A stretch of DNA of 63,546 nucleotides, the filler included, from Neolecta irregularis DAH-3 (lineage: Eukaryota), in NCBI GenBank assembly GCA_001929475.1. It is 10 parts of 10 records of this genome, joined end to end, with 100 filler letters (N's around TTAATTAATTAA, not from the genome) between each part and the next. Parts side by side here need not be neighbours in the genome. Positions count along the whole stretch, not along the records: positions 17,705 to 36,570 come from LXFE01000990.1; 9 more parts are not named here. One strand, written 5' to 3'. Each line of letters starts with the position of its first letter. Within the stretch, counting starts at the first letter, position 1. The position numbers were made by a program, and so were the translations under genes. Below the pieces are notes generated by a model. That model was not told the DNA's origin. It made no database searches and saw only the letters and a list, made by a program, of their open reading frames with translations. Positions 7,640 to 54,482 of the stretch are shown one piece after another.

Positions 7640-8161
7640 ATGTCGATTATCTTCAGATACTGTCGTGTTATTCTGCTTCAATCCTCTCTCCCTTTGCGGA
7701 CACTCACGACATCAAAATCCCATCACAAATCCATTGTCGATTCGGTAAAAGATTCTATTAAGGACGCAGCCAAGACCGTTGATAGTAATAACTTGCTTTA
7801 GATATGTGTTGACAGTTGAGAAAGAATTTCTAAAGGAGCAGTTAAGGGTTTCGAAGAGCTAGAAATAGCAACTGAAAAGGCTCATGAACTAGGCAGGGTT
7901 CTAGTCAAGGACGGCTTGAAAGCAAACCATGAAAGCAAGGGCAAAGCGCAAACACACGTCCAGAACGCATCAGAGAAAGTGAAGGGTGCCATGCACCAGG
8001 CCAAAGGCAAGGTTGAGGCGCATTCAAATACTGCATCCGATAGTATGAAGGGAACTGTGCATGATACTATGGAAAAGATCGGGAACGCAGCAGAAAAGGT
8101 GAAACACGCCGCGAAAAATGTTGATCAAGATGTCCGGGGGAAAGCAAAGAAAGCCAACTAG
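7640..8161 (+). CDS. LEA-domain-like protein with predicted mitochondrial presequence, 2 exons
   Basis: MSIIFRYCRVILLQSSLPLRTLTTSK presequence, then K/A/E-rich amphipathic repeats (ASEKVKGAMHQAKGKVE). Intron 7785-7820 (GT...GAG) joins it to the 7916 ORF frame. Confidence 0.7.
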
Positions 8162-12237: not shown

Positions 12238-14113
12238 NNNNNNNNNNNNNNNNNNNNNNNNNNNNNNNNNNNNNNNNNNNNTTAATTAATTAANNNNNNN
12301 NNNNNNNNNNNNNNNNNNNNNNNNNNNNNNNNNNNNNAAGGGTCGTCAATAGTGATAACCGTTGGTATTAATATACAGTGTTAAGCCTAGCGCGCTAATC
12401 GCGCTGGGCGCTACCTATATACCCGTTCTCGGGTGCCTCCGTCCGGCTATTCGCCTGGTCCCTGAACCAAGGTCTCAGACTGGGAGGGCGCCCACAGCTT
12501 GTGGCGTCCTCTATGTCTGACCCGGCTGGTGCGGTTGTGTGTGGGCGGTGGGACTTGATAGTGCCCACAGCCAACCAAGTACTTCCAGGCTGTGAAATAT
12601 AGAAGTATGAATTGCTTAGGCTTCATATATTGCTCCTTTGTGACTCTTAAAATATCTGTCTCAGTATCTGTAATGACTACTTTTCAGGCAACCTTTGTGT
12701 ATCACTCGCTGACGCAGAAGGCGGCTCTATCCTGTGGTTAGGGTCAATGTGTTGAGGTTGTGCTGTGTGCTGGTCCGTTATGAGACCAATTGTTTCATTC
12801 CTTTTGTGAAATTGTGGGGACTACCAAGCCCCCCACGGCATTACAGGTTGGATTAGGCCTGACCACGCAGAAGATGGGTGAGAACGGAGCGGGATTAGGG
12901 AAGCAACCCCGATCCGGGGGAGGAGACGGCTTCGACGGGTATTTGGGTCGCAGGCTTGATGCTGTATACCACAATACGAGTTGTTACTACCACACACAAC
13001 GACTCACCAGCTCGCCGCCGCCGCCCAATCGTCGGGAGGAGCACGGGGCGCAGCAAGGGCCGCTGCCCATGCCGGTCTGGCCCATCACAGGCATCGCCAC
13101 CAGGCAAGTCGATCGGGAGGCAATCGGGCAGATGACACTGGCTAGCAGATGTGCCGAGTCTATGTACAAGTAGGGCCTAGCCGGACTCGCCGACTAGTCA
13201 TAAACCCCGATATCCAATTTACGTAGTTAATTTGCTTGAAGTACCTACGGCAGCATATCGGACCAAAGTCCTTACCAGCGCCCCGGAAGAAACAGAGGAA
13301 TCAGCCCGTGGTATTAAAGTTCAAATTCGCCATATTTACAAGTTGGACCCTGCTGGGAATCTTCCCTCGATGTCTATTATTATCGAAGTTATTTATCCTC
13401 ACTGCCATTCTCATCTACATCGGTTGCAAGCTCTGTCTTCTATGGTTCCCCCCCTTAATTTCCTCTTTTATCTGCTTACTTCTGATTGGAGAAGGATTTT
13501 GTGCTCATCGGGTACTTGGAATAGCGTTTCACCCCGTATATTATTATCATCGTCAATCTAACACGCGGAAAAGGTGGTCATTGATATTATTGACTCTTGA
13601 ATTATATAGATTTGCGAAATGCCCTCTGATTTAACTTCAAGCAACCGAATGTGCATTTGGATTTCGGCGGCTTGAGCTGCGATAATCCTTCGTGCCATAA
13701 ACATTGGGAAGTTTGACTGTAATTGATACTGCAGGTGAGATCTGGTTGGTCTTAACCATTGCTGGTCTCTTACGGATTTCGAATTGATGGTTTAAACTTG
13801 AGGTGGATGACTGATATCGAGCCTGGCTTCCTAATCTGATTAAAAGTCCCAACTGGTAAATAATGCTTGATGTTGAATCTGATTACGATGACTCGGCATT
13901 GTCATTCCTTTACCACAATTAGGTACTGCAGTCGCCGATCGTCATAGACCACATTCCCCTCTCTTACAAGATGGGAAATTCCAGGGCAATCTCCCCTGAA
14001 TCGATAGGCTTGATCCGCCAATCGATGACGGGCTGAAAAATTCCCGACGGATAATTTACAGGCAAGAATATCTTAAAAGGGCAACGAGAACCAAAATCAT
14101 CCTCAGTTTTTGA

Positions 14114-14987: not shown

Positions 14988-15087
14988 NNNNNNNNNNNNN
15001 NNNNNNNNNNNNNNNNNNNNNNNNNNNNNNNTTAATTAATTAANNNNNNNNNNNNNNNNNNNNNNNNNNNNNNNNNNNNNNNNNNNN

Positions 15088-17604: not shown

Positions 17605-18221
17605 NNNNNNNNNNNNNNNNNNNNNNNNNNNNNNNNNNNNNNNNNNNNTTAATTAATTAANNNNNNNNNNNNNNNNNNNNNNNNNNNNNNNNNNNNNNNN
17701 NNNNGGATATGATAGTGGATCGGGAATGAGATAGACGATAGTAAAAATCGCGTAGGAAAGAGGGAGAGGAATAAGCTTGTGCGAGGAGACCCGATAGCAT
17801 CTTTTTAGGCGTTATCCCTCAGCTTAGTATTTCTTTACGACAAATACTCGACTGAGGATTTTCGCCTAAAATTCTTCATTCAAGGAAACGGCCACGATGA
17901 AGTCTTTCCCCAAGCAACCTTTCAAGACGGCGCCAATTTTGAAGTCCAGAATGGCAGAGATAGTATTGACAAGTTGCCTGTCGAAGAGGGCGGGCAGGGT
18001 GAAGAGGGCAGGCAGCAATGGGCAAGCAGGGCAGGGCAATAAAGGGCGAGGAGAGGGAGCAGCAATGGGTGAGGTGGGCAGGGCGATAACAGGCGAGGAG
18101 GGCGGGCGGTAATCGGCGGGACAGTAACGGGCGATGAGGGCATGTAATAATGAGCGACAAGGGCGGGTGAGGGCGGCCGACGAACGGGGACGGGCGACAA
18201 GGCAGTAGAGCTCTAATATCA

Positions 18222-18480
18222 TGTGTTATGGCCCAAACACAACACTGCTCAGGTGAACTATTTACACCAACACAAGTCTACAAGTGACAAAAGGGGAACA
18301 CCTTGAACTCTCACAAAGGAATAATTTGGTGAAACACCACCATTACTGAAGGAGGTTTGCAATAATATCGCGTTAAAATTGTACTATATAGTAGATAAGT
18401 CCATACGTAGCCAAAATCCATGTTCACTTGGGCTCGAAATAAAACCTAGTCTTATTCGTATTAGGGCTCTATCAGGTACA
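18222..18480 (+). mobile_element. LTR remnant
   Basis: TG...ACA termini and AATAAAACCTAGTCTTATTCGTA core shared with other copies. Left boundary approximate. Confidence 0.45.
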
Positions 18481-19272
18481 GAAAGTGGGTGGATTAAGAC
18501 GTGTGTAACGGAGAGGCTTCCGCCGAGTAAGCCTGGATAGCGGTAAAGGGAGGAGTGGAGACTCCCCCAGCGGATGAGAGGGGAATAGCTTAGACACTAA
18601 GTAGCCATGTATATAGTACCTGTGTGGAAGATAGCTGTCATCCCTAGGGTGACGACTAAATGTCACAAAGTTAGCCCTCCGCTACAACGTAAAGTTCATT
18701 CAGTGATCGACAGAGCCCAACTGAAAAGACGAAAAGAATGAGCCTTGCAGCACAGGGAATTCGGTTTTAGTCAGGGTGATAAGACCAAGATCCTCTGTAA
18801 TGCATTGGAAGAGTTTGACCTTGGGAAGTGATATAGTTTGATAACTTGTGGTCATGATGTTGGTTCGATAGTCAACACCGTGTCTTGGATCAAAAGACGT
18901 TCTTATTGATTGTCCTTGGAGCGTGTATTTTGCAATTCGCGTTGAATTAGAATAACAGAGACGTGTCTGAATACAACACAAGAGTGTGAAATGAAAAATC
19001 ATAGCTATTCAAGGAGTAAAGAATCAAGAAAACACAATGTCAAAAGGACCATTCAAGTCTTCCATTACATTCTCACTACTACCATCACGTAAATTAAACA
19101 TAGAATAGTCGTTTAATAGTGAATTCTATGATTTACTTGTATTTTCTCGCTTTTCTCTCATTCGTATCCAAGGTCATTCAAGTACGAATTATTGAGTTTA
19201 TATCTCAACAGGACGTTCCCCTGAAGACAACTTCGCCTATTTACATCACTCGCAACCTTTGACTTTCGCATC

Positions 19273-21837
19273 ATGTCTACTGCAGATCCGAGCAAAGGGA
19301 TAATGGATAAACACCTTATCACGACAATAAACAAGCTTCAAGTAACAAGACTTGTAAAATTTGCTTATCAGTTGAGGATGCTTTCGCGACTGTCGGCGTC
19401 CAGAACCCCGTAGATCTTCCCCAAATCACCGTTATCGGCTCTCAATCAAGCGGAAAATCGTCAGTCTTGGAAAACATTGGTATCTTACTATATCGTCTAA
19501 CAACTGTACTGACACATCAAGTGGGACGTGACTTTCTACCTCGTGGTAAACACTTTCCAAGGGCTAGTTCAATTTGCTCATGATATCCAGGGACCGGAAT
19601 TGTTACAAGACGACCTTTGGTAAATATCCGCAGCATCGGGGTCTTATTGTCCAGATTTTGCAATTAATACATCGTCCTGCAGGCTCAACCGATGGCTTGA
19701 AAGATGGTGCCAAGAATGAAGATTCAGCCGGCAATGGTGATGAATGGGGAGAATTTCTACATATTCCAGGTCAAAAATATTATGACTTCTCAAAAATCAG
19801 AGATGAGATTATTCGTGATACCGAAGCGAAAACTGGTCGAAATGCGGGAATCTCTGCGGTCCCAATTAATTTAAGGATCTACTCACCTAATGTTCTCACT
19901 CTCACGCTGGTCGATCTTCCTGGAACGACCAAGGTTCCGGTGGGAGACCAACCAAAAGATATTGAGAAACAGATTCGCGAGATGATTCTCAAGTACATCA
20001 CAAAACCTAACGCTATTATCCTTGCCGTTACCGGCGCAAACACAGATCTAGCGAACTCTGACGGTCTAAAGATGGCAAGAGAGGTTGATCCGGAAGGTAC
20101 CCTATCACGTTCATCGTGATCACTTATTGTAGGAACTCGAACAATTGGTGTCCTTACAAAAGTCGACCTAATGTACAGTCTATTAGCTCCGTTGCTCTAA
20201 TGGCGAAGGGATCAAGGAACAGACGTCGTTGATATTCTCGCAGGACGGATCATTCCTCTTCGCCTCGGATACGTTCCGGTTGTCAATAGAGGTCAACGAG
20301 ACATCGAGACTAATAAAGCTATCTCAGCGGCTCTAGAACATGAAAAAGCCTTCTTTGAGAACCATCCATCTTACCGATCGAAAGCTCAGTATTGCGGTAC
20401 TCCCTTCTTGGCTCGTAAACTCAATATGGCATGTTTGATCTTGTTCTTTCCTGCTCATCAGTCAGATTCTCATGCATCATATTAAGAACACATTACCCGA
20501 AATCAAAGCCAAGATTTCCGCCGCATTAGCCAAATACGGAGCTGAACTTGCACAACTAGGTGACTCAATACTGGGCAACAATTCGAATATTGTCCTAAAC
20601 ATTATCACTGAATTCTGTAACGATTATCGAACCGTTCTTGACGGTCAAAATCAAGAACTCTCTTCGAACGAATTGTCAGGTGGTGCTCGTATCAGTTTTG
20701 TCTTTCATGAATTGTACGCCAACGGAGTCAAAGCTGTCGATCCCTTTGATCAGGTTAAAGATCTTGACATCAGGACTATTCTTTACAACTCATCTGGTTC
20801 ATCACCCGCTTTATTTGTGGGAACAGCTGCTTTCGAAGTGATCATTAGACAACAAATCAAACGTTTGGAAGAACCTAGTTTGAAATGTGCGACGCTCGTT
20901 TATGACGAATTGAACCGTATTCTTTCACAGTTGCTTCAAAAACCTGTATGGTCTTGATCATACTCCTCTAATACCCAGTTCTTCAAAAGGTATCCTGCGC
21001 TTCGAGAGCGATTCCATGCTGTTGTCATCGCTTTCTTTAAGAAATGCATGACTCCCACGAATAAGCTCGTACAGGATTTGGTTGCTATGGAGGCTTGCTA
21101 TATTAATACCGGACATCCAGACTTTATCAGTGGTCAACGAGTATGTTACAATAATTCGATTGCCGAATTGATATTTTAGGCTATGACTATTGTGGGCGAG
21201 AAAATGCTGGCAAACAAACCAGTACAAGTTGATCCAAAGACCGGCAAACCGATTGCATCACATATCTCCACAGGCTCAGACGTCAATGTTGAAAACTCTG
21301 GGTTCTTTGGAAGTTTCTTCGCTGCGAAGAACAAGAAAAAGATGGCTGCGATGGAGCCGGCAAGTCAAGTTATTGATAAAACCCCTTACTGGATAGCCTC
21401 CAGCTGTGCTGAAAGCGTCTGGGACACTCAACGAACGTGAAACTGTGGAGACTGAAGTAATTAGTACGCGAAATTTCTCTGCATGCCCGCTTAACTATAT
21501 TCAGAGTTGTTAATCATGTCCTATTTCAATATCGTAAAGAGGACAGTCATTGATATGGTACCGAAGGCGATCATGTTCAATCTCGTGGGGTATATTATAC
21601 GTCGATTGAGTCTTGGTTGATCAGCCATAGATTCTCTCGCCATGATATGCAGCGCGAACTTCTCGAAAACCTCTACAAGACAGATGTTCTTGACGATCTT
21701 CTCAAGGAAAGCGAATACACCATCAACCGCAGGAAAGAATGCCAAAGAATGGTCGATTCACTTGCTCAAGCATCGGAAATTGGTTCGCCATTTCACTGAC
21801 CACACAACACTAATTTGCTCTAGTCGCGAATGTCTAG
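19273..21837 (+). CDS. VPS1: Dynamin-related GTPase Vps1, 14 exons
   Basis: [62 protein letters not shown]...[11 protein letters not shown] and GED. Thirteen introns of 33-45 nt. Confidence 0.95.
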
Positions 21838-22029
21838 GTAGATTCGGAGTTTGTGGATTCTTTCAGAATTTAAAATGTTCTATTCATAGAACCAACACTC
21901 GTTAATGTCCCCTAATGAAATATACATGCGATGTCAATCCCAACTACCATTTTCCCAGTTCAGTCCCAATGTTCCCATTTTGCATTAAACATGCTATAGC
22001 TTCCATATTGCACCAAAGGGAATATTAGT

Positions 22030-25000
22030 TCAAACAAAAGCCCACAATAAATGTTTAGCCGTGTCTTCATCCTCGATAATTCGCCAATCGAAAACGTAAA
22101 CGCTCTCGCTCAATTTCCCTTCCCTGAATGCATCTCGAATTTTTGAGAGCATGGACATCATTTCCTTTCTCTGTCTCTCCTCAATGAGAATGACAATTCT
22201 GGAAAGATGGGATATGTTGAGCTGGATGGGATCATCCCATTGTAATATCTGTTTCACCTTGTGTCCTTCAAGAACGGTGTAGATGTAGCGTGATTTTTCA
22301 AGGCTAGAAGCGAGAAATATAGTGGAATCAGAGTTAAACAGGCTGTTTTTATTAATCGAACATTTCTTAGTCCGCGAGTGGTTCAAAGCAAAAGAGCCTA
22401 GCAGTGTTCGCCGATGTTTAGGAAGAGGCATAAGAGAATCTTGAATGTTCTCTAAACCGTCGTTTTCTTTATTAGAGTCTTCAAGTGTTCTTTTTTGAAG
22501 TTTCACAGGTTGATGGAACGAGTCATATCGCAACGATGAAGGAGTATTCAGTAATCCAGAGGTCGAAGGTTTCTCGGAACATGAAGACACTAATGATGAA
22601 GCAGCTGTAGAAGGACCTTTGTCTGCAATATCAAAGGGATTTGCTTCCGCTGATCGATTCCTCGATGGGGTATTTGGAACCGAACCACTGAAAAGTGACG
22701 CTTTTGAGCGTTGTTTCCGAATTTCAAGGCCGTGCAAAAGGGTGGCTTGTATGTCCAGTGTCATTGTAGGTTTCAATAGGGATTTTGTTGACGAAGTATC
22801 TTCCAGGTTCGTCTGCTTGCATTTTGAAACACTCCTCAGGTCCATCATTTTAGGTGGAGCGTCTTGCAATCCTTTAGATGAAATAGCTTTGATTCTACAT
22901 GCTGAAAGGATTTTCTGAGGAGTAGTGGGAGTTGAGCGCTTAGGGGGAGTCTTCGTTTTAGCTTGATTATGGAGCTCATCTGTTTCTGCTAGAGCTTCTT
23001 GCCATGCTTCGATTTCTCCGGGGAGAGGTAACCCGGTTGCTTCTTGTGCAAGCGCCTGATATTCGTTATAATCCACAGCATCCAGCCATACTCGATCGAA
23101 ATGATGTTTGATAAAACGGGGCCATCTTAGAACACTGTAGTCTATTGCACCGGGTTTGTGAAAACCAGACCCAAAGATCTCGAAGACCATTGGATCCTTG
23201 AAAACGACAGTTAAAGGTGATTCTTGTGTTAGTTCCGGCCGTATCTTATAATTCGCTGGCATGATGAAACTCTAAAAGGTTATTAGGGTACTTGGAACTT
23301 ATTATTACATTTGCTTTGTATGTTATGGCGTTGCTTTTGTTGATGTTATTCAAGTTGAATAGATCTGCCATCGCAATATCATAAGTGAGCACATCCACTA
23401 CAAGGAAATCGGGTTTGGCTCCCTATAGAGTGAGGAATTTCTTCGAGAGATAACTTGCCCTCTTTTTGACATCGTCCTTATTCGTCACCAAGCCAATATG
23501 GAAAACATTCCACATGTGCGATCCAAGTTTTCGGTCCTTTGCTCTCTTGGTGTTAAAGCCCGCTCCAACGATCGCAACATCTGCCGTATCTCCAAATCCG
23601 TTTATATAATCTTTCTTGAGTTTGACCCAATCGTGATTATGACCGTATAATGGCAAGTATGGACTGTCCGCTTTCTTGATAACTAGGCCTTCTTGTCGAG
23701 CAGTGATAATTTCTGCTTTGAATTTCCGGAAGGAATTGAGCTTGCCAGCATAATCAGTCTTGAAGTCAAACTGCCGACGAGCTGCTAACTGTGACTTTTC
23801 ATTAATTTTGGATTCTTTCTGGATATCAAACCCATCCAGACCTTATATCTATCAATGATTCTAGCGTTTTCCTCCTTTCTTCATAGGTTTCGCCTAGCAG
23901 GGATCTGTCGTCCACCAGAATGCAATCAAAGAAGACAATCATCAGATGTTCAGTCTTTGGTATTCGACGGGTCTTATCGCGACCTAAGCCTCTATTCGCT
24001 CTTGTTACATGATATCGAATAACATCGAATGGCTGAATCGCTTTGAGTTTGTCATCATATACAACCAACTCGCCTTCGATGATGCATTTTTGTTGAAAAG
24101 CTCGATTCTGTCTAGTGAATCTCAATGCTTCGATTATGATTCTAAATGTGGGTGAGAGAAATGATGGCATATGTACGGCAAAGTTCTCTTGCGATCCTGT
24201 GTACTGTTTCTTCCACTTTTACTAAAGATTTTGATTGGAGAGTGCTCATCAGCCAGATCGACATGTATTTGCATTCTATTAATCAATTGAAATCAACCAA
24301 AAAAATACCTACCGCTCGCCATCATATTTAATTTCGGCATAAACACGGCTTTTGTTTATTACGTCGACTGTGTGTTTACAACCCATGCCTTTCTGACATT
24401 TTGGAATTCGCACAGGTGTTCCAATTTGTGGCCGGAAGGCGGGATCTCGATCTTCCCAGTACAAAGCTTCACAAGCCTTTCTTATGTCATGCTTTCTACA
24501 GGATTTAGAGGGCTTAGCATAGCGGGTAACGTACATCGAGTAGATTCGAGGTAAGCACTGATCGATTCTTACAAGGACAAAACCCTCAGAAAATTCCACC
24601 GGTCGAAGGTCCTTTAGTAGAATCCTTACGAACCATTTTGCTTCATTTGGCGTCATGCGATTGAAATTTGGCTTGATAATCTTTAAACAACATTTTCTTT
24701 CATGGGTTGGCATTCTCTGCACGTCTTGATTCTGAATTAGTTCTGAAAATGTAGAAAGCGTAGCAAGCTCATTGAAAGTTCCTTCAATGTCAAGAATGGT
24801 CAAGTTTGAAATTTGGTGCGACCCCTTCCCCAGGATTAGCTTAATATTTGATCAAAGTGAAGTAATACAGGAAATGTCAGATCAACGATGCGTTTCAGAG
24901 CAGTTCCTAGATCTCCATTTCCACTCTCTCGCCAATTCTCAAGTTGGGTCTTTCTGTGTTCGATGTCGAGTACCTTGGTAAAGATTTTGACCAGCGAATT

Positions 25001-25225
25001 CTCGCGAAGCGCGTAAACCCTATCTTTTCGCATATCCGGAAGTAGCATGCTAAGAAGGGCTAGCGTCATCTTTGAGTTATTCTTTAAAATGTCTTTATGA
25101 CAGTTGAAAAACACGTTGAGCGTTTCAGAGTAGACTTGTTTTGTTCGTATTTTCGATAATTTTGCAAGTTGAGCTCTTTCTAGAGCTTCGAGTAAATTAC
25201 ACACATCACCAAAAAGTATGGACAT
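22030..25225 (-). CDS. ATP-dependent DNA ligase (Lig4-related paralogue, no clear tandem BRCT)
   Basis: Motifs AEIKYDGER, IIEGELVVYD, VFFDCIL, EGLVIK, WVKLKKDYINGFGDTADVAIVGA and LRWPRF; N-terminal DNA-binding domain LLPDMRKDRVY; about 7 short introns. Confidence 0.88.
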
Positions 25226-25883
25226 GATTGCAATTAAAAGTTTGGCTACGCCAGCGTGCCGCGAACGGTTCTGGAAGGAACGTCGGAGATTATTATGGCT
25301 ATGATGCCTGAATTAAAGTTTTGGTGGAGAACCCGAAGATCATCGAAATCGCGAGATGGGCCCACGTGCTTACGCGTTTATTTCCACTCCACCAAAATAT
25401 ATTTTTTCCTAATGAAGAAATTTGTTGAGGTGGATAAATATAAAGATGCGTTTGCCAGCTCTCCGAAAAATATAATATTTTCTTTTTGGAAAATTATGAA
25501 TTCATGATATTTTATGTTATTTTGGCTAAACGCACTCTCCGGTGCCTCACCAAAATTCAAAAATTACCCTTACCCTCGCCCTCACTTTCTCAATTCTACT
25601 GGTAACAGATGATGAATGTATATGAACAAAGATTGAGAGGGATTGGAGAGAAAGGGGATCATCATGACATAAGGTTGAGTTAAATATAAAGAGGAGACAG
25701 TAGCCGTACCTATATTCTTGCTTTGTATTCTCCGAGATATAGGTAAGTGATTCCGACTATATACTCTCTGAGATATGGACTGATTCAATCTTGTCTAGTC
25801 TCCCATAAGCAGTCTAGCGTGTTCACCATTACACACAAGGTTACACCAACATTGTCAGGTTATACAAACGCGAACGTTACAGC

Positions 25884-26234
25884 ATGAATACAGATGAGGA
25901 TGATGAATACAGCAGTCATGTCAGTAAGGACTGCAGAGATTGTCAAAGTGGAGCTAGGATGATTGCATTTGCACTTCAGCAACTTGCTACAATAACAGAA
26001 AATGTTGTTACTGCTACAAATTATGCACTATCAAAACCAGAGCGTGCTGTTGGAAAGCTCCTGAAGGAGTACACAGGTGTGCTAAGCGATCGTGATATTA
26101 TGAAGGCAGTGGGTTTGTTTGAGACAGAGATGAAGGCTGGAATGTTCCTGGTAATGAAGAAAGGAGAGTTCCAGGATATGTGGCTGCAGGATCAGCTGGA
26201 CCGGCTGAAACAGCAGGGAAAGGCAAAACGTTGA
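25884..26234 (+). mobile_element. Fragment resembling the C-terminus of a PIF/Harbinger Myb/SANT-type ORF1 protein
   Basis: AVGKLLKEY..LSDRDIMKAVGLFETEMKAGMFLVM..FQDMWL pattern, recognised from memory. No transposase nearby. Confidence 0.4.
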
Positions 26235-26585
26235 GAATTCTATATCTATACTTGTCTATTCTTTCAAAAAACTGTTAAGTTTAGGAAATACCGCTGTTGC
26301 CCCGTATGCGAGACAGTATACAGCGACACCCGCCCACTGCGGCACTATCGCAACACCAGCAGCATGATGGGCAGCCGCCGCAAGATGCTCTATTCCAGAA
26401 CGAGAGAGTCGGGCGCGAGCCGTATGTGGACCGCTGCACGAGGGGTAGGCGAACCGGAAAGCACAAACAGCGTGTTGAAGCGGGAGCAATAGTGTTTTGG
26501 GGATTGAGAGGACAGAAGGACTGCCAAAGTATGCGGTCGGCATCCAGTCCTCGCCGCTGGTTTGAACCCGATGAAAGGAAATGTG

Positions 26586-27954
26586 TTAACCCAATCTTGA
26601 AATTCTATTTTTTAAAATAGGCAAGATTGTCATTAAATAGTCCTCCGTATTCTCTTCAGTCATCAAGCTCTTCTCAAAATGTAATTCATAATCGGAGCCA
26701 TAGGATGTCCAGTATTCGTGATGCGGTATCTCGTTGGACAATAAAACATTACACGCTATACTCGTAAGGTACGAGCAGCACCTCGCGGTGTCAACTGAAG
26801 AATATCCACCTGCAAATATTATATATATTTGCAAATTGGAGGTCGTACCCCCACCGAGGAGCAATGTAGGCAAATTCCAGGCCAAAATCCGGGAAACTGC
26901 TTCGCCAAAGCTTTTTATTGTCAGATTCCATTCTTTGTGAGGATCTCTGATGAGACCTTTCATTATGAGTCGAGTGTCCAAAAGTAAATTTTCACCATCA
27001 CATCCCAGTTGCACAACAACCGCATCGGGACAAAATGAATCTTTTGCCAAAGGCACAAGGGCTTGAAATAGTCTCCAAAAAGTTTTGTCATTGAGACCTC
27101 TCTTCAGAGGAATATTCAGCGTGGTATGTATGCCTTTACCTTTGCCCACTGAATCGATACCTCCTGTATTAGGATAAAATCCTTTATCAAATCGATGGAA
27201 GCTCAATGTATATACTTTCTCAGAGTGCAAGAAGGCAGATTCAACGCCTTTCAATGTCAATTAAAACTTACCGGGTAGGTCATACCATCTGCAGCATGAA
27301 GATCAAAATCAATGTACAAAACCTTGTCGAATTCTTTTCGCAAATGCATTATTGCCAATACAATGTCATTGATATAACAAAATCCAGCACTAGATTTTCA
27401 ATACCAATATGATAAGAAGAGCTCTTAAACCTCCTGCCTCGTCTGGCATGGTGTCGGCCACCATCCCAGTTTATCGCAACATCAGTATTTCCACTTACTA
27501 AAGATTCTGCGGCAGCCAGGCTCGATCCCGCGAGAAGCCGTGTATATAATGAAAGTTCTGGAAATGGCGGACAGTCCTTTCAATTAAAGATAGCCCATTA
27601 TACTGACTTACATAAGCTAAACCATATTCTTCCAAGAGTATATCTTCTCCCTCTTCACCATCGTATTCAAGAAGGAATTTAGAGAATTCTGAGTCGTGAA
27701 ACGAGGAAAGGTCATCTTCAGTTGCCGACAAAGGTTCAATGAGCCTGAGTTGAGTATGATGTTTCAGAAAATACATACTGGACGTAATCGAACAGATTAT
27801 AGGCTTTTGCCAGTTCGTGAACAAGTGAAGACTTGGTGTAAAGCCCATATTTTGCAATCCCTTATACCCTACCTTCATTTGAAGGTAACAAATTCGCGAC
27901 TTCTTCCCACTCCTTGCTATAGACGTAACCTACTTTACGTTTGGTGAGACTCAT
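26586..27954 (-). CDS. HOS1: Class I histone deacetylase, Hos1/HDAC8-like
   Basis: RSSLVHELAKAY, YGLAYDCPPF, NWDGGRHHA, SAGFCYINDIVL, DFDLHAADGVE, QLGCDGL and LLLGGGGY; seven short introns. Confidence 0.85.
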
Positions 27955-28082
27955 GTCAAGAGTGAATATTTTATCACCTCGGTCCGACTCTTCCCTTCGA
28001 TATAAATATGGTTGGTTGATTAGATGGATGCACGTTCGTTCAGCCGAGTTTCCAAAGGCTTGTCAACTTCAACGTCAACAGA

Positions 28083-28384
28083 ATGCCTGGTTCCATTTCA
28101 GTAGGCCAAGAATCCGTACGCGAATCAATGAACAGTACCAATCCTTTGAAATCGACAGATATTTACTATAATAGTTGTGCAGGAGATCACTAGAATGTTG
28201 GGTGTTAACTTGGATCGCAATTCTCTATCTCTGTGTCTAAGTTTAGTTAATAACGGGGTAAATCCAGAAGCGCTAGGGGTAGGACCTATTATTTTACCCA
28301 AGACTTTTGTAATGGCAGGCGATTCTAACAGATTTATGGAAACGCAAGGCGCAAATTGCCACTGCGAAATCGAAAGCAACATGA
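28083..28384 (+). CDS. MZT1: Mitotic-spindle organizing protein 1 (gamma-tubulin complex)
   Basis: Spliced product RESMNIVQEITRMLGVNLDRNSLSLCLSLVNNGVNPEALGAILTDL matches the MOZART1 pattern; two short introns. Confidence 0.85.
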
Positions 28385-28460
28385 CATGAAGCGATTTGAC
28401 ATGCAAGAGTTGGTTTAGTCGATTCAATAAATAAGTTATATTTTACACTACAAGATAAAT

Positions 28461-33996: not shown

Positions 33997-34459
33997 ATGC
34001 CCCAGGTAGGCATTCCGCCTGCTCAGTTATATCGCAAACTGCTTAAATCGGGGTTGAAAGCAGTATGTTTTGCCCTCCCGAATCGATACAGTATCCGCGA
34101 TAGGATTAGAGGTGGTTTTGAAGATTCGAATTTTCGACCGTCGATAGAAGCTATTGAAAACACCGTCGCTTTTCTTGATATTGCGGCACGTAGAAAAGGC
34201 TTGGAAGATCGTATTGTGAAAAATATATGCTTTATGCAGTGGTCTAAATCCCAGGATAAAAGAATGTAAGAGAGCCGATTGGAAAGAAAAAGTTTATATA
34301 TAAAGGCATATTCGGTACAATCAAACGACCAAGGGTGACGACAAAGCACGCAATCAAAATATCAAACAAGAAGAGAAAAAACTATTGGCATCCTCTTTGG
34401 GCCACTTCAATGATACATTAATTCAACTGAACAGAACAGCAAATCTCTGTCTTCGCTGA
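33997..34459 (+). CDS. LYR-motif-like fungal protein (DUF1763-like), 2 exons
   Basis: LYRKLLKSGLKAVCF...R.RIR..F, NTVAFL..AA...GLEDRIVKN, and C-terminal FNDTLIQLN..ANLCL after a 40-nt intron. Confidence 0.65.
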
Positions 34460-34539
34460 GAAAAAAAGTAACTCTTCACAAAGAACCCATGTTCCATTGT
34501 TATATATGGCTCGTTTCTCGCAAAATAATCAAGGCACCT

Positions 34540-35784
34540 CTACAGAATATATTTCACTCGCTCTGGTGACAGATATAATTTATTTTTAGTGATGTATCTT
34601 ATCACACTGTTGGGCAAGAGATACTCTACACTCATTCCTCTCCTGATAAATAAACTACAGCTCGTCAGGAAATTGCTTGCAGGGGGACAGAAATACCGGA
34701 CTTTGGTCGAGCTAATGTCATTGTAAATCAGTTGTTTAATGACGACAACATTTTTCTCATTGGTATCAGTACTTGATTGTAATAAAAGATATACCCTATG
34801 CTTATACAAGATATCATGAGCTAACAAGAAACCCCAAACATCTGACCCAGTCCGTTCCACGATCAAACAACCATATCTTCCCAGTATATGGTGGAGCTAT
34901 AGAGATCAACCTTTACACAAAAAAAGGATACATACATCCTCGTCGGCCCATACATCTGGCTCTCCCATGGATTCAATCAAATCTCCACCGGCCAAAAGCA
35001 TGATTTTGACTTTGCGAAAGTCGCCTAAATTAAGGGCAGGAAAGAGGATACGAGTATTGTACCATTCTTCGTCTTGGTTCCGCCTCTGACTTCGTTGATT
35101 TCATGATCAAAATGATCAAGCACTACAGCGGTTCGAGTATATTGGCCTTGTAAACTTTCCCAAGCATCTACCATGAGCCATGAACTAGACCGATCAATTT
35201 CTATTTCGATAAGCGTTTCATTATACCTCGTGCGTTCACACGCTAATTCGCACATTCTTACGCGGTGTTGGGCTAAAGCCAAACCTGGTTTCCGATAATT
35301 ATCCGACACAGGCGAGTAGTAGCCTCCTATAACTTCATAGTTTGTGGATTCGCGAATATTATCAAGTGCCATTTCTGCGATATTAGTCCATGATGCTATT
35401 TGAATTCGCACCAAATATTCGTAAATGGAGATAGGTGACGGGACTGAAACTCCCACAGGCAACAATCACAAGTGGCTCTTTGGTCTCGTCTCGTCCAAGT
35501 CAGGCATCTGTATTCCACAAATGTGGTATCATACCGACTAAAGGTGTCAAGAGATGATCTGCGAAACGATAATCTTCCAACACCGTTGCCTGTCTTATAA
35601 TTCCAGTCGGAATCTCTTCAAGATCCATCGCACTCTTGAGCGGAAATGGATTATCGTCCGAAGAACTGAGGAAAACTTTTGGATTATGAAGAGTACCTGG
35701 TTTGGCCGAAAAGGGACGACTGTGAAATAATTTGGTAGAGTCTTGGGAAGGCGGAATGAAATCAGGCGCAAGAGTGGGATCCAT
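34540..35784 (-). CDS. NMA1: Nicotinamide/nicotinate mononucleotide adenylyltransferase
   Basis: MDPTLAPDF start, PLVIVACGSFSPVTYLHLR, SPVSDNYRKPGL, SSWLMVDAWES and NDISSTKVRLF; seven short introns. Confidence 0.93.
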
Positions 35785-44420: not shown

Positions 44421-45579
44421 TTATCGCGATGCGACTTGGAAGACACGGATGACTTTACAGATCAGCAAAATATTTAAAAGAAATTTACCATTATCGGTAT
44501 ATCCACCAAAAAGGGTACTTCCATCGGCACTCCAGGCCAGACTCAGGCAATGGTGATTAGTGCCTGAGCCCGGCCTGAATTCGGGTTTCAGTTCTTCAAC
44601 GACGCTTTTGTTTTCTAAATCCCAGACGACAATGCCCGAGGTGGTGGCAGCACAAAGCCAGTATCTGGTAGGGGAAAAGCAGAGGGCGTGAATTTCATTA
44701 CCGGCATCGAGGGAGTAAAGGTCCTTTGAATCGTTGAGATCCCAGAGCATAGTGGTACCGTCTTTTCCTCCCGAGGCACACAACGAGCCGTCTGGAGAAA
44801 CAGTAACAGTATTGATGTAACCAGTGTGACCGTAGTGATTGGTGCGGAGTTTGCATTTAGTAAGTTCCCAGACCTTGAGATTTAGTATAATTCAGATAAA
44901 CATGAAGATTTTCGAGAGATCATCAGTAAATGGTGTTTGTTGTCTCATAGCCGCAGCATCTGAAGTAGCAAATATATATTTTCAACATCCTCTGATCAAG
45001 GCAAGTAAAAGATACGCACCTTGACAACGCGATCCCATCCGGCAGATACAATTGAGGGGTGAGCTGGATTAGGTGAAAATCGAACAGACGAGACCCATTC
45101 AGAGTGGCCTTCTTCCTGGATGGTGAATTTACAGTCTCCGAGAGTGTTCCAAAGTTTGATGGTCTTGTCACGAGATCCCGAGACGATTTGACGATTATCG
45201 GAAGAAAATGAAACGCTGAGCACATCGCCGGTATGTCCTACAAACCGTCTGGTGGTGAGACCGGTATTCAAGTCCCAGAGTCGCAGAGTTTTGTCCCAAG
45301 AGGCCGACAAGGCATACTGTCCATCTGAGGAAATCACGACATCCTGAACAAAGTGGTTATGCCCTAATGGGTCAATATTCCTCGCATCTGGTCACACATG
45401 CCGGTGAGGGTCTTTTTGGGGTATCCGAATGAAGCTTCATCTCGAGTCAAGTGCCACACACAGACAGTTTTATCTCTGGAAGCAGACAGAAGGAGATCTG
45501 GGTTTTCCGAAGAGGTTGCAATGGCGGTAACCCAGCCGGAATGGCCTTCGAGGGTTCCACGAAGAATAAGGGAGTCCAT
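44421..45579 (-). CDS. cpc2: RACK1 / Asc1 / Cpc2 (40S WD40 protein), 4 exons
   Basis: [34 protein letters not shown] and CASGGKDG; introns 45364-45401 (GC-AG), 44874-45019 (146 nt) and one 36-nt intron. Confidence 0.97.
44918..44997 (-). ncRNA. Box C/D snoRNA, U24/snR24-like, intronic in RACK1
   Basis: Terminal stem GATCA/TGATC, box C AGGATGT, guide ATATTTGCTACT then D' CAGA, C' ATGAGA, D CTGA. The yeast ASC1 intron hosts snR24 with the same D' guide. Confidence 0.88.
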
Positions 45580-46668: not shown

Positions 46669-49600
46669 ATGCCCCACGCAGCGCAGAATCCCCAGGATCC
46701 CGCCTCAGACTGCTCCCGCGGCTCGGTACGCGTCGCTGACCCATCATCCGCTAACCGCCCAGCATTCGCCAGACTGGCAGCTCCCCGCGCCCGGCAGGCG
46801 CCGCTCAGACATCAACAAGGAGCAGCGCAGGGCGTTCGGCGAGAACAACTCCAGGCTCAATGCCGCAAAGGTGCCTCCGCCCCTCCCGCCAGCCAGCCAG
46901 TCTCACAGCGCCAGGACCAGGACTCAAAGAAGCGGCTCGCCTTTCTCCTCGGCCAGTCAGGTGCGGCATGCTGCCTGCCCCTGCCGCTGATACCCAGAAA
47001 TATTCCGCCATTTCATTGCCGAAGCCGACTACAACGAAATCATGCAGCAGCGCGCAAAGAATGGCTGCAAGGCAAAGACAAACGATACCCGCCACGGCCG
47101 GAAAACAGAACAAGAAGAGGATGCAGAACTGCTCCAAGACGAGCAGGCCGAACCAGAAGGCAACTATGTCTTCCAGGGCTCGCCTTCATGTGTCTAAACA
47201 CTGCGGCAATACACTAACCGCGCTAGTTGTCAAGGGCGGCCTTATGCGAGACTACCAGGTCCAGGGACTGAACTGGCTCGTCGCCCTCTATGAGAACGGC
47301 TTGAACGGTATCTTGGCAGACGAAATGGGTCTGGGCAAGACCTTGCAGACCATCAGTTTCTTGGGATATCTCAAGTTTGTCCGAAACATTGAAGGCCCGC
47401 ACCTCATCGTCGTGCCAAAATCGACTCTCGACAACTGGAAAAGGGAATTCGAAAAATGGGTCCCTGGATTCAATACGTTGGTTTTACAGGGCGCAAAGGA
47501 CGACAGGGTATCAATCAATCCTCGTGCCATGCCGCTAAGCCCGCTCAGCACATTCTTATCAACGATAAGCTTTTGCAAAATGACTTTGACGTTTGTATTA
47601 CTAGCTATGAAATGGTACGGCTCCGTGACTCGCGTCTTTACTAAACAGCTAGGTACTCCGAGAAAAGTCGCACCTGCGAAAGTTTGCTTGGCAGTACATC
47701 ATCATTGATGAGGTTGCACAAATTCAGCCTAGTCCTAACTAGTAGGCACATCGCATCAAGAATGAAGACTCGATGCTATCCCAAGTCGTTCGTATCTTCA
47801 ACAGCCGGAATCGTCTTCTAATTACGGGAACTCCTCTTCAAAATAACTTGCATGAACTTTGGGCCCTTCTCAATTTCTTACTACCGGACGTTTTTGGCGA
47901 CTCGAGCGCGTTCGATTCTTGGTTTGAGAAACAAGGAGAAGACTCGGATATCGTTGTCAAGCAATTACACAAAGTACACCTAAATTATTACCCGCTGCCA
48001 GCTAATGTTTAGGTCTTGCGACCATTCTTACTTCGAAGAATCAAAGCCGACGTTGAAAAATCTCTGTTGCCTAAAAAAGAAATTAATCTCTATGTCGGCA
48101 TGACTGATATGCAAGTCAAATGGTATCGAAAAATTCTTGAAAAAGATATTGATGCAGTCAATGGTGCCAATGGAAAGAAAGAGGGCAAGACTCGACTGCT
48201 TAATATTGTTATGCAGCTGCGAAAGTGCTGTAACCATCCATATCTTTTCGATGGCGCAGAACCTGGTCCTCCATACACTACCGACGAACATCTTGTTGAC
48301 AACGCTGCGAAAATGGTCGTTCTTGATAAATTACTGAGACGGATGAAAGCTCAAGGTTCACGAATCTTGATCTTTAGTCAGATGAGTCGAGTTTTAGATA
48401 TTCTCGAAGACTTCTGCATATTTAGAGGTCATAATTATTGTAGAATTGACGGTAACACTGCACATGAAGATCGTATTCTTGCAATTGATGATTACAACAA
48501 GGAAGGAAGCGAGAAATTCATTTTCCTCTTAACGACTCGCGCTGGTGGTCTTGGTATCAACTTGACGACAGCCGACATCGTTGTTCTCTACGATAGTGAC
48601 TGGAACCCGCAAGCAGACTTGCAAGCAATGGACAGAGCTCATCGCATTGGACAAAAGAAACAAGTTATCGTTTTCCGCTTTGTTACAGACAAGGCTATAG
48701 AAGAGAAGGTTCTAGAGCGAGCGGCTCAAAAACTACGTCTTGATCAATTGGTCATTCAACAAGGACGGGCCCAGGCCGGTGCCGCTAATAAAGCTGCCTC
48801 AAAAGACGATCTTTTAAATATGATCCAGCATGGTGCGGAAGATGTCTTCAAGAGTGTTGAAGGAACCATGACTGATGATGATATTGACGCGATCTTGCGA
48901 CGAGGAGAAGAACGAACTGCCGCATTGAATAAACGATACGAAGGTGTGGGAATTGAAGATTTACAAAAATTCGCTTCTGATTCAGCGTATGAATGGAATG
49001 GCGAAGATTTCCAAAAGAAAAAAATCGAGATTGGACAGACGTGGATTAATCCTGCGAAAAGAGAACGAACTCAAAATTACTCAATTGACGGTTATTACAA
49101 GGATGTCTTGAAGACTGGTGGAAGAACGCAAGCTCCTCCAAAAGCTCCCAAGCCTAAGCAGGTGAATGTCCAAGATCATCAATTCTACCCTCGAGAATTG
49201 CTGGAACTCCAGGATAAAGAAACAGCTTGGTATCGCAAGGAGCAAGGCTACAAAGTTCCTTTAACGGAAGGCGATGAGATGGACCTCGAAGTACGAGAAC
49301 AAGACCGTGAATTAGAACAACATGAAATCGACAATGCTCAACCTCTGACACAAGAAGAAATCGCTCGAAAAGAAAAATTCTCGACTCAGGGATTCAGTAA
49401 TTGGAATAGACGAGATTTCCAGCATTTCATCGCTGCGAATGTCAAGCACGGTCGAGCTGATCTCGAGATGATCGCTGCAGAATGCGAGGGAAAGACATAT
49501 GAAGAAATTCGACAGTACTCTACTGTATTTTGGAAGAAATACAAAGAAATAGATGGTAAATTTCTTCTTGATTAATATTTTTGCTGAGTTCAGGTTGGGA

Positions 49601-53223: not shown

Positions 53224-54482
<1,259 letters not shown>

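What the first reader, a model, noticed from the sequence alone, without database searches (positions are those of the whole stretch)
19342..21823. Ultrashort introns with a branch-point 'ruler' and purine-AG acceptors that skip nearer CAGs
Seen: the 13 VPS1 introns are 33-45 nt, and nearly all of the roughly 100 introns traced in the window fall in 31-45 nt. The likely branch A (CTAAC, CTGAT, CTTAT, TTGAT variants) lies about 7-10 nt from the 3' end, with no consistent polypyrimidine tract. The frame forces GAG acceptors at 19376 (tcagttgag, skipping a CAG 5 nt upstream), 7820 (acagttgag, same pattern) and 35490, with a probable fourth at 34756. AAG acceptors are common (19521, 20208, 44874, several in HOS1). 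Established: GAG is the rarest NAG acceptor in most eukaryotes. Inference: 3' splice-site choice is set by distance rather than YAG/U2AF recognition, implying a modified spliceosome.
Basis: partly seen in the sequence, partly recalled or inferred. Interest (0 to 1): 0.75.

Follow-up and report, generated by a model that had tools for sequence, protein, structure and literature searches.

The report
Very short introns in Neolecta irregularis
The fungus Neolecta irregularis interrupts its genes with many tiny introns (about 38 bases), and their unusual GAG and AAG ends are real but fit the ordinary rule that splicing uses the first AG a few bases past the branch point.

Summary
The window is Neolecta irregularis nuclear DNA. 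VPS1 has 13 introns of 33-45 nt: all 13 junctions align without gaps to 7 orthologues, and 5 of 5 depth bins of a spliced contig fit the model.

I checked 58 introns in 9 genes.
- Length: 56 are 33-45 nt, median 38. The exceptions are 51 nt and 146 nt.
- Branch motif: a YTNAY motif has its A 5-12 nt from the 3' end in 51 of 58 (22.6% expected by chance).
- Acceptors: TAG 29, CAG 16, AAG 10, GAG 3.

All four claimed GAG acceptors hold, one as an explicit cDNA junction (34756).

The bypassed CAGs lie 1-4 nt after the branch A. Ten of 58 introns carry such an AG, and none uses it. The first AG at 5 nt or more is used in 57-58 of 58. This is the textbook first-AG-after-the-branch rule.

The pyrimidine preference at -3 persists (45/58, p=0.003). 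A modified spliceosome is therefore not implied, and it could not be tested because no genome is held.

Side results: 4 of 58 introns are GC-AG, and public models mis-annotate two of them. The 146-nt RACK1 intron hosts a SNORD24-like snoRNA.

The parts
19273..21837 (+). VPS1 (dynamin-family) gene, 688 codons, 13 introns
   Evidence: Exon 20466-20945 is 100% identical to the N. irregularis VPS1 protein P0002. The corrected model aligns to 7 orthologues. Bin-depth check.
19342..19376 (+). VPS1 intron 1, 35 nt, GT..GAG. Branch-like CTTAT has its A 9 nt from the end. A CAG 4 nt after that A is bypassed.
19480..19521 (+). VPS1 intron 2, 42 nt, GT..AAG
19546..19590 (+). VPS1 intron 3, 45 nt, GT..CAG
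19620..19654 (+). VPS1 intron 4, 35 nt, GT..CAG
20097..20132 (+). VPS1 intron 5, 36 nt, GT..TAG
20173..20208 (+). VPS1 intron 6, 36 nt, GT..AAG
20429..20465 (+). VPS1 intron 7, 37 nt, GC..CAG (GCATGT donor). A CAG 4 nt after the CTCAT branch A is bypassed. The public model uses a 73-nt GT-AG intron instead and loses 12 conserved residues.
   Evidence: (bin gap 37.1 nt observed; 37 in this model, 73 in the public model)
20946..20978 (+). VPS1 intron 8, 33 nt, GT..CAG
21141..21179 (+). VPS1 intron 9, 39 nt, GT..TAG
21360..21396 (+). VPS1 intron 10, 37 nt, GC..TAG (GCAAGT donor). The public model uses a 28-nt GT-AG intron and inserts ASQ.
   Evidence: (bin gap 123.8 nt observed; 124 in this model, 115 in the public model)
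21464..21504 (+). VPS1 intron 11, 41 nt, GT..CAG
21590..21630 (+). VPS1 intron 12, 41 nt, GT..TAG. A CAG 4 nt after the TTGAT branch A is bypassed.
21783..21823 (+). VPS1 intron 13, 41 nt, GT..TAG
   Evidence: (contig piece resumes at 21823)
7785..7820 (+). 36-nt intron, GT..GAG, in a 161-aa orphan gene. The CAG 3 nt after the TTGAC branch A is bypassed, and an in-frame TGA lies between the CAG and the GAG.
   Evidence: Frame logic and the public model only; no cDNA and no orthologue.
34756..34794 (-). 39-nt intron, GT..GAG. CTGAT branch A is 10 nt from the end.
   Evidence: Explicit joint 34755->34795 in spliced contig X2; sequence.
35490..35534 (-). 45-nt intron, GT..GAG. CTGAC branch A is 10 nt from the end.
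   Evidence: An X2 piece begins at 35535 and the bin gap of 81.7 nt equals 37+45; model; sequence.
34266..34305 (+). 40-nt intron, GT..AAG
   Evidence: Explicit X2 joint.
44874..45019 (-). RACK1/Asc1-like gene intron 2, 146 nt, GT..AAG. TACTAAA branch A is 8 nt from the end. This is the long exception and it hosts a snoRNA.
   Evidence: The flanking exons map to residues 62-175 and 176-305 of solved RACK1 chains; sequence.
44919..44996 (-). SNORD24-like C/D box snoRNA candidate inside the RACK1 intron
   Evidence: Rfam RF00069, 32.2 bits (gathering score 41), E=8.4e-4, full model 1-76.
45364..45401 (-). RACK1 intron 1, 38 nt, GC..TAG (GCATGT donor)
   Evidence: Frame, plus exon 2 starting at RACK1 residue 62.
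53224..54482 (-). GAPDH gene with 6 introns of 36-51 nt. The 54154-54204 intron is 51 nt, and 54422-54459 ends in AAG.
   Evidence: Pfam profile continuity; alignment to representatives.
46871..49593 (+). ISW2 gene segment with 8 orthologue-checked introns of 33-44 nt, all with YAG acceptors. In 47713-47745 a TAG 4 nt after the CTAAC branch A is bypassed in favour of the TAG at 7 nt.

Best explanation
These are ordinary U2-type spliceosomal introns of Neolecta irregularis that have shrunk close to the smallest workable size.

Each intron has three parts:
- a GT (about 7% GC) donor of the form GTA/GTR;
- a degenerate branch motif (YTNAY or YTNAN) whose A lies 24-42 nt from the 5' end and 5-13 nt, mostly 7-10, from the 3' end;
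- an acceptor that is simply the first AG whose G lies at least 5 nt past the branch A.

AGs 1-4 nt after the branch cannot reach the catalytic centre and are skipped. This is why a 'nearer CAG' is bypassed in favour of a GAG. Because only one AG lies in the reachable window, the -3 base matters less, so AAG (17%) and GAG (5%) are tolerated. A pyrimidine is still preferred.

The 5-13 nt spacer leaves no room for a pyrimidine tract. As in other fungi, pyrimidine-rich stretches sit upstream of the branch instead.

Shown here: the intron coordinates, lengths, end bases, motif positions and AG statistics. Inferred: which A is the branch point, the steric reason for skipping, and that the spliceosome is conventional.
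For: - Organism.
- Splicing is real. Contigs of run X2 skip 36-42 nt segments with GT..AG or CT..AC ends at 14 displayed joints, while X1 contigs run straight through.
- 58 validated introns: 56 are 33-45 nt; YTNAY sits 5-12 nt from the end in 51 of 58 against 22.6% by chance (p=6e-26), and YTNAN in 58 of 58.
- First-AG rule: 10 of 10 introns with an AG at +1 to +4 bypass it. An AG at +5 or more is bypassed in 1 of 58, which becomes 0 with a near-tied alternative branch. In the 49-intron set, AGs at +2 to +4 were 5.7 expected and 7 seen, while AGs at +5 or more were 5.0 expected and 1 seen.
- A rule anchored on the 5' end alone ('first AG at length 33 or more') fails in 6 of 55 introns. In all 6 the bypassed AG is 1-4 nt after a branch-like A, at lengths of 33-38 nt that other introns do use.
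- The 146-nt RACK1 intron keeps a branch-to-end spacing of 8 nt.
- The canonical -3 order is kept: T 29, C 16, A 10, G 3. YAG is 45 of 58, p=0.003 against composition.
- Pyrimidine tracts: 22 of 49 introns have one upstream of the branch and 3 of 49 downstream. This matches the fungal pattern reported in PMC5677156 (passages).
- The scanning model and the branch-to-AG loop are described in PMC9984181 (passages).
- Constrained branch-to-AG spacings in yeasts, equivalent to 5-11 nt by my measure, are reported in PMC2483917 (passages).
Against: - No branch point was mapped. Every branch A is a motif call, and the minimum-distance rule depends on those calls.
- The X2 evidence consists of assembled contigs, which show only the dominant form. 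Minor use of the bypassed AGs cannot be excluded.
- Only 16 junctions were displayed explicitly. Another 25 rest on bin-depth sums plus frame or homology, and 17 rest on homology alone.
- Purine at -3 is 13 of 58 (22%), well above the 5.7% reported for Fusarium (p=2e-5). Some relaxation of -3 reading is therefore real and unexplained, and I had no baseline from within Taphrinomycotina.
- GC donors at 4 of 58 are also above the roughly 1% known for human introns (PMC3167603, abstract).
- The spliceosome proteins and snRNAs of this species were not examined.
Confidence: 0.75

Rival explanations
1. One reading: Neolecta has a modified spliceosome, for example one that has lost or altered U2AF35-type reading of the -3 base or the second-step factors. 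The 3' site would then be measured purely by a ruler and YAG would no longer be recognised.
For: - Purine at -3 is 13 of 58, against 5.7% in Fusarium (PMC5677156 Table 1, passage).
- GC donors are 4 of 58.
- There is no pyrimidine tract between the branch and the 3' splice site in 46 of 49 introns.
- The branch-to-end spacing is very narrow, sd 1.7 nt.
Against: - The pyrimidine preference at -3 persists (p=0.003), in the canonical order T>C>A>G.
- Lack of a downstream tract is the fungal norm (PMC5677156 and PMC2483917, passages).
- Myxozoans and Stentor, which have even shorter introns, keep U2, U2AF1 and U2AF2 (PMC13644364, passage).
- Every feature seen here is predicted by the standard first-AG model.
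Confidence: 0.1
2. [quoted passage not shown]
For: - The length distribution is very narrow: 56 of 58 introns are 33-45 nt.
- The rule 'first AG at length 35 or more' predicts 50 of 55 acceptors without using any branch motif. That is as good as the strict YTNAY rule, which predicts 48 of 55.
- The bare intron signature is as common in shuffled sequence as in the window (785 hits against a mean of 769). Some extra cue such as length may therefore be needed.
Against: - Introns of 33 nt exist, yet AGs at 33-38 nt are bypassed in 6 introns. Each of those AGs lies 1-4 nt after a branch-like A.
- The 146-nt and 51-nt introns keep branch-to-end spacings of 8 and 9 nt.
- The 5'-to-branch and branch-to-3' distances do not compensate for each other (r=-0.10).
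Confidence: 0.1
3. The GAG junctions are artefacts of gene models or assembly, or only minor isoforms, and real mRNAs use other sites.
For: - Public models in this window do contain errors: VPS1 at two introns and an ISW2-TEL2 fusion.
- The 7820 junction rests on frame logic and the public model only.
- Contigs hide minor isoforms (note).
Against: - 34756 is an explicit junction in a spliced contig of depth 116.
- 35490 fits a piece boundary and a bin sum.
- 19376 is required for the invariant NKLQ|DAF junction. The nearby CAG would shift the frame into a stop.
Confidence: 0.05

Closest known systems
[quoted passage not shown] 1989 and 1993, Chen et al. 2000, as cited and discussed in PMC9984181; passages read)
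   Same: - GT/GC-AG ends and a branch motif of the YTNAY type.
- The first reachable AG is used.
- The -3 preference runs T/C > A > G.
- AGs hard against the branch are not used.
   Different: The branch-to-AG distance here is 5-13 nt, against about 15-35 nt in humans. There is no pyrimidine tract in the spacer. Purine at -3 is more frequent (22%).
Yeasts with a constrained branch-to-AG distance: Debaryomyces hansenii, Eremothecium gossypii, Candida spp., Yarrowia lipolytica (Irimia & Roy 2008, PMC2483917; passages read)
   Same: - A narrow, short spacing. Their TACTAAC|Nn|AG with n=2-8 corresponds to 5-11 nt by my A-to-G measure, and Neolecta has 5-13.
- No downstream pyrimidine tract.
- The smallest preferred spacing they report (n=2, A-to-G 5) equals the smallest spacing used here.
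   Different: Those species are intron-poor, with a near-invariant TACTAAC and often long introns. Neolecta is intron-dense (13 introns in a 2.07-kb VPS1 CDS), its motif is degenerate (CTRAY in only 21 of 58), and its introns are about 38 nt.
Intron-dense lineages with ultra-short introns: Paramecium, the Bigelowiella nucleomorph, dicyemids, myxozoans, Stentor (PMC2483917 and PMC13644364; passages read)
   Same: Many introns per gene, a very narrow length distribution near a lower limit, and no pyrimidine tract.
   Different: Those introns are 15-26 nt and were reported to show no clear branch-point signature. Neolecta introns are about 38 nt and carry a clear, positionally fixed branch motif.
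General fungal intron architecture (Kupfer et al. 2004, as summarised in PMC5677156; passages read, Kupfer itself not held)
   Same: CTRAY- and TTRAY-type branch sites, pyrimidine tracts optional and mostly between the 5' site and the branch, and YAG acceptors.
   Different: Fusarium introns are 42-529 nt with 94% YAG and 91% CTRAY. Neolecta introns are 33-45 nt with 78% YAG and 36% CTRAY. Fungal branch sites typically lie about 13-25 nt from the end (PMC2483917), against 5-13 nt here.
Short introns of other Taphrinomycotina (Schizosaccharomyces pombe, median 56 nt in the table of PMC2483917; Pneumocystis, recalled as about 45-50 nt)
   Same: Same subphylum, short introns and a degenerate CTRAY-type branch. 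Neolecta and Pneumocystis are both intron-rich (PMC7940399, passage).
   Different: Neolecta introns are shorter still. I found no printed description of their length or 3' architecture.

Membership tests
U2-type (major) spliceosomal introns | GT (rarely GC) at the 5' end and AG at the 3' end | tested here: met
   54 GT and 4 GC donors; 58 of 58 end in AG.
U2-type (major) spliceosomal introns | Removed from mature RNA | tested here: met
   16 junctions are explicit in spliced X2 contigs, while X1 is collinear with the window. 25 more fit bin-depth sums. 17 rest on homology only.
U2-type (major) spliceosomal introns | Branch-point motif (YNYTRAY-like) upstream of the acceptor | tested here: met
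   YTNAY within 5-12 nt of the end in 51 of 58 and YTNAN in 58 of 58, against 22.6% by chance. The branch A was not mapped experimentally.
U2-type (major) spliceosomal introns | Recognition by U1/U2 snRNPs, SF1 and U2AF | not testable with these tools
   No whole genome is held. Rfam finds only 2 tRNAs in the window.
First-AG (scanning) 3' splice-site selection | [quoted passage not shown] | tested here: met
   57 of 58 introns, or 58 of 58 with a near-tied alternative branch. 10 of 10 AGs at +1 to +4 are bypassed.
First-AG (scanning) 3' splice-site selection | -3 preference C/T > A > G | tested here: met
   T 29, C 16, A 10, G 3.
Constrained 3' intron structure of intron-poor eukaryotes (Irimia & Roy 2008) | Narrow branch-to-AG distance | tested here: met
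   Mean 8.6 nt, sd 1.7, range 5-13.
Constrained 3' intron structure of intron-poor eukaryotes (Irimia & Roy 2008) | Strong, near-invariant branch consensus (over 50% of introns with one hexamer allowing one degenerate site) | tested here: not met
   18 different pentamers in 49 introns, the commonest being CTAAT in 9 of 49. CTRAY in 21 of 58.
Constrained 3' intron structure of intron-poor eukaryotes (Irimia & Roy 2008) | Intron-poor genome | tested here: not met
   13 introns in VPS1, 6 in GAPDH, and 41 validated introns in 18.9 kb. 4202 introns at homologous sites are reported in PMC7940399 (passage).
Ultra-short-intron lineages without a branch signature (Paramecium, nucleomorph, dicyemids) | Median intron under 30 nt and no detectable branch motif | tested here: not met
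   Median 38 nt with a clear positional YTNAY peak.
U12-type (minor) introns | RTATCCTT donor plus a TCCTTRAY branch 10-15 nt from the end | tested here: not met
   Only 1 of 58 introns (GAPDH 53784-53822) begins GTATCCTT, and its 3' region reads CCTGTTAAT, not TCCTTAAY. Minor-spliceosome snRNAs could not be searched.

The most novel reading that the evidence does not exclude
Neolecta breaks the reported dichotomy in which intron-poor species have fixed 3' architecture and intron-dense, short-intron lineages have no branch signature. It is intron-dense, its introns sit at a hard lower size limit, its branch motif is degenerate but fixed in position, and both intron ends are read more loosely than in other fungi (22% purine at -3, about 7% GC donors). 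The bare signature is as frequent in shuffled sequence as in the window. Recognition may therefore depend on a fixed-geometry pairing of 5' site and branch across about 24-35 nt (true intron definition by span), possibly with altered U2AF35, SF1 or U1 specificity.
Probability: 0.2. Interest if true: 0.55.

Novelty: new member of a known kind. Interest (0 to 1): 0.3.

Why it matters
For gene annotation:
- Neolecta irregularis genes need an intron model with a 33-45 nt length, a branch 5-13 nt from the end, RAG acceptors allowed and GC donors allowed.
- In this window the public models mis-splice VPS1 at both of its GC-AG introns and fuse ISW2 with TEL2.
- Such errors carry over into the comparative studies that use this proteome.

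For intron biology:
- The species is an intron-rich ascomycete whose introns sit at a size floor yet keep a recognisable, positionally fixed branch site.
- This gives a natural data set on the minimal branch-to-AG distance. AGs at +4 are never used and AGs at +5 are used.
- It also bears on how far -3 and donor specificity can relax.

No new machinery is required by the data, so the result mainly refines a known picture.

Tried and rejected
- Whole-genome access: none is held. U2AF, Slu7, Prp18, Prp8 and the snRNAs could therefore not be inspected. Rfam on the window found only 2 tRNAs.
- The look-up of sequencing runs listed no RNA holder. Both runs were labelled 'DNA?'. X2 nevertheless behaves as cDNA when laid.
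- Read laying displayed only 15 of 52 joints and its cap is one call, so the VPS1 junctions had to be checked indirectly through bin depths.
- Ab initio gene finding with my own dynamic-programming scripts was unreliable. It recovered 4-14 of 16 known junctions, chained neighbouring genes together and invented introns at gene ends. Examples are 22304-22339 and 28513-28549, which uninterrupted contig pieces contradict, and 21534-21566 and 47716-47760, which homology contradicts.
- Its 'extended' set of 42 further introns was dropped from all counts. It visibly contains false calls and is enriched in GAG, as expected for random AGs.
- A bare signature scan (GTD ... YTNAY ... first AG, 31-51 nt) gave 785 hits, against a mean of 769 in 10 shuffles. 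It is useless as a census.
- The histone deacetylase ('HOS1') gene at 26586-27954 could not be resolved from bin sums (model 172 nt against 139 nt observed), so its AAG acceptors are unchecked.
- The metagenome scan for VPS1 relatives returned 80 loci, none closer than 77% protein identity. Conservation of the GAG acceptor in a sister species could not be tested.
- The search of earlier findings returned nothing.
- Kupfer et al. 2004 is not held. I found no source for 3' splice-site base frequencies in S. pombe.
- Supplements of the genome paper, which may list intron statistics, are closed.
Full report
**What the window is.**
- An exon of the gene in the finding is 100% identical to 'Vacuolar protein sorting-associated protein 1 [Neolecta irregularis DAH-3]' (P0002). 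Two other genes also hit N. irregularis proteins at 100% identity (P0122, P0241).
- The window is not one natural stretch. It consists of ten assembly contigs joined by a synthetic spacer of 44 N + TTAATTAATTAA + 44 N.
- No whole genome is held for it.

**Evidence that the introns are spliced.**
- Two public runs hold the sequence. When they were laid on 17705-36570, X1 contigs ran collinear with the window, in pieces of 13,197 and 5,219 nt.
- X2 contigs skipped short segments. 14 of the 15 joints displayed are X2 skips of 36-42 nt with GT..AG or CT..AC ends. The fifteenth is a 334-nt X1 skip in a repeat.
- Two more X2 junctions (29139|29182 and 29764|29803) and four piece boundaries (21823, 23271, 30381, 35535) appear in the table of pieces.
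- X2 therefore behaves as cDNA, although the tool labels it 'DNA?'.

**VPS1.**
- Threading the public protein P0002 on the DNA gives 13 introns, two of them odd: 73 nt and 28 nt.
- Orthologues show that the public model loses 12 conserved residues ([14 protein letters not shown]) at the first of these and inserts ASQ at the second.
- Replacing them with GC-AG introns 20429-20465 (GCATGT, 37 nt) and 21360-21396 (GCAAGT, 37 nt) makes all 13 junctions gap-free against 7 orthologues.
- The X2 contig covering VPS1 has depth 111.8. The uncovered bases per 629-nt bin were 303.8, 106.9, 37.1, 123.8 and 108.0. My model predicts 304, 107, 37, 124 and 108. The public model predicts 277, 107, 73, 115 and 108.
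- One caveat: the bin check cannot tell the acceptor of intron 1 apart from the nearby CAG, because the contig start floats with the total. That acceptor rests on the invariant NKLQ|DAF junction and on the frameshift and stop that the CAG would cause.

**The validated intron set.** I assembled 58 introns from complete genes or from complete runs of evidence, not picked by their end bases:

| Source | Introns | Evidence |
|---|---|---|
| VPS1 | 13 | |
| Explicit X2 junctions | 16 | |
| Frame plus bin sums or piece boundaries (DNA-ligase gene 22030-25225, the 28.4-31.1 kb gene, the 34.6-35.8 kb gene) | 12 | |
| ISW2, checked against 8 orthologues | 8 | |
| GAPDH, by Pfam profile continuity and alignment | 6 | |
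| RACK1 | 3 | |

**Statistics.**
- Lengths: 56 of 58 are 33-45 nt, median 38. The exceptions are 51 nt (GAPDH) and 146 nt (RACK1).
- Donors: GT 54, GC 4.
- Acceptors: TAG 29, CAG 16, AAG 10, GAG 3.
- Branch motif: YTNAY with its A 7-10 nt from the last base in 42 of 58, and 5-12 nt in 51 of 58. Chance would give 22.6% (p=6e-26). YTNAN occurs in 58 of 58 and strict CTRAY in only 21 of 58.
- Elsewhere in the intron the motif occurs about once per position across 49 introns.
- Assigned branch-to-end distance: mean 8.6 nt, sd 1.7, range 5-13.
- Branch A position: 24-42 nt from the 5' end, sd 3.0. The two distances do not compensate for each other (r=-0.10).
- A minimal pyrimidine tract (6 nt, at least 3 T, no A) lies between the branch and the 3' site in 3 of 49 introns, and upstream of the branch in 22 of 49.

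**The GAG and AAG claims.**
- 34756-34794 is an explicit junction ending AATGAG.
- 35490-35534: the next contig piece starts at 35535, and the bin gap of 81.7 nt equals 37+45.
- 19376: see VPS1 above.
- 7785-7820: both flanking reading frames are open. A TGA lies between the CAG and the GAG, no other GT/AG pair keeps the frame, and the public 161-aa model uses this intron. There is no cDNA and no orthologue.
- AAG at 19521 and 20208 is confirmed.
- AAG at 44874 is confirmed. The two flanking exons map to residues 62-175 and 176-305 of solved RACK1 chains.
- That intron is 146 nt and contains a SNORD24-like C/D snoRNA (32.2 bits, E=8e-4, below Rfam's gathering score).
- The AAG acceptors claimed in 'HOS1' were not resolved.

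**Why nearer CAGs are skipped.**
- In 10 of 58 introns an AG lies with its G 1-4 nt after the assigned branch A. Examples are ctcAtcAG, ttgAtcAG, ctgAcgAG, ctcAcAG and ctaActAG. None of the ten is used.
- 7785-7820 (ttgAcAG) is an eleventh case.
- An AG at 5 nt or more is bypassed in one intron only (47615-47652). There a near-tied branch call (CTAAA, score 6.5 against 6.6) puts the AG at +4.
- The shortest spacing actually used is 5 nt (2 introns).
- In the 49-intron set, AGs at +2 to +4 are as frequent as expected (7 against 5.7). AGs from +5 up to the acceptor are depleted (1 against 5.0).
- A rule ignoring the branch ('first AG at intron length 33 or more') fails 6 times in 55. Every bypassed AG in those cases is branch-proximal, at lengths of 33-38 nt that other introns do use.
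- The 146-nt intron keeps a spacing of 8 nt.
- Choice is therefore anchored on the branch, not on total length.

**How this compares with what is known.**
- Irimia & Roy (PMC2483917, passages) report narrow branch-to-AG spacings in several yeasts. Their n=2 in Y. lipolytica up to 7-8 in D. hansenii corresponds to 5-11 nt by my measure. They also note that most fungi lack the 3' pyrimidine tract.
- The Fusarium survey (PMC5677156, passages) places 83% of tracts upstream of the branch, and reports 94% YAG and 91% CTRAY.
- Myxozoans and Stentor have still shorter introns and keep U2, U2AF1 and U2AF2 (PMC13644364, passage).
- Hence the 'ruler' is real, but it is the ordinary one. Nothing here requires altered machinery.

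**What does stand out.**
- Irimia & Roy tie fixed 3' architecture to intron-poor genomes, and describe intron-dense, short-intron lineages as lacking branch signals. Neolecta is intron-dense: 13 introns in a 2.07-kb CDS, 41 validated introns in 18.9 kb, and 4202 homologous-site introns in PMC7940399 (passage). Yet its branch, although degenerate, is fixed in position.
- Purine at -3 (22%) exceeds the Fusarium figure (p=2e-5).
- GC donors (4 of 58) exceed the roughly 1% quoted for human introns (PMC3167603, abstract; p=0.003). Both rest on small numbers from one window.

**Is it in print?**
- The genome paper's main text contains neither 'intron' nor 'splic' (PMC5309816).
- 33 held papers mention both Neolecta and intron (20 were listed). 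In the four where I read passages, none describes intron length or 3' architecture.
- 5 papers hold both Neolecta and 'spliceosom' (listing only).

**Verdict.** The distance rule is supported, but it is the canonical mechanism. The 'modified spliceosome' is unsupported and could not be tested here. This is a new, fairly extreme member of a known kind of intron architecture.

Noticed in passing
window 20429-20465, 21360-21396 (+); 23423-23458, 45364-45401 (-): Four GC-AG introns among 58 validated (GCATGT or GCAAGT donors). The public VPS1 model P0002 avoids both of its GC-AG introns by using wrong GT-AG introns of 73 and 28 nt. It thereby loses 12 conserved residues and gains 3.
   Followed up: yes
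window 46669-53128 (+): The public protein P0122 (1919 aa) fuses ISW2 (SNF2, HAND and SLIDE domains) with a TEL2-type gene (Telomere_reg-2 domain at 51458-52306). ISW2 orthologues are about 1000-1130 aa and end near 50030.
   Followed up: partly
window 44874-45019 (-), snoRNA 44919-44996: The RACK1/Asc1-like gene carries a 146-nt intron with a SNORD24-like C/D box snoRNA (Rfam 32.2 bits, below gathering). From memory, yeast ASC1 also hosts snR24 (U24) in its intron, so the host-gene relation may be ancient.
   Followed up: partly
window 8260-8359, 12238-12337, 14988-15087, 17605-17704, 36571-36670, 38591-38690, 43838-43937, 60580-60679, 62006-62105: Nine identical spacers (44 N, TTAATTAATTAA, 44 N) show that the window is ten assembly contigs laid end to end. 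Neighbourhood across spacers means nothing.
   Followed up: yes
window 2362-2452 (+) and 3373-3455 (-): Two tRNA genes of 91 and 83 nt (Rfam 53 and 52 bits). ARAGORN reads them oddly (undetermined, 'SeC' tca), probably because they contain tRNA introns.
   Followed up: no
window 46000-48000: A GC-rich stretch (58% against about 42% elsewhere) covers the 5' part of ISW2. The introns there are GC-rich too, yet keep the same length and branch spacing.
   Followed up: no
window 61120-61917 (-): An ORF with integrase zinc-binding and rve core domains. It is probably a retrotransposon remnant.
   Followed up: no
window 53784-53822 (-): One GAPDH intron begins GTATCCTT, which resembles a U12-type donor, but its branch region does not fit the U12 consensus. 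It is probably chance.
   Followed up: partly
whole window: The bare intron signature (GTD, YTNAY 5-12 nt before the first reachable AG, total 31-51 nt) is as frequent in dinucleotide-preserving shuffles (mean 769) as in the real sequence (785). The known signals alone carry too little information to define introns.
   Followed up: partly
window 17750-18620: X1 and X2 contigs break, carry loose ends and reach higher depth here, including a 334-nt skip in X1. This suggests a repeat or an assembly-variable segment upstream of VPS1.
   Followed up: no
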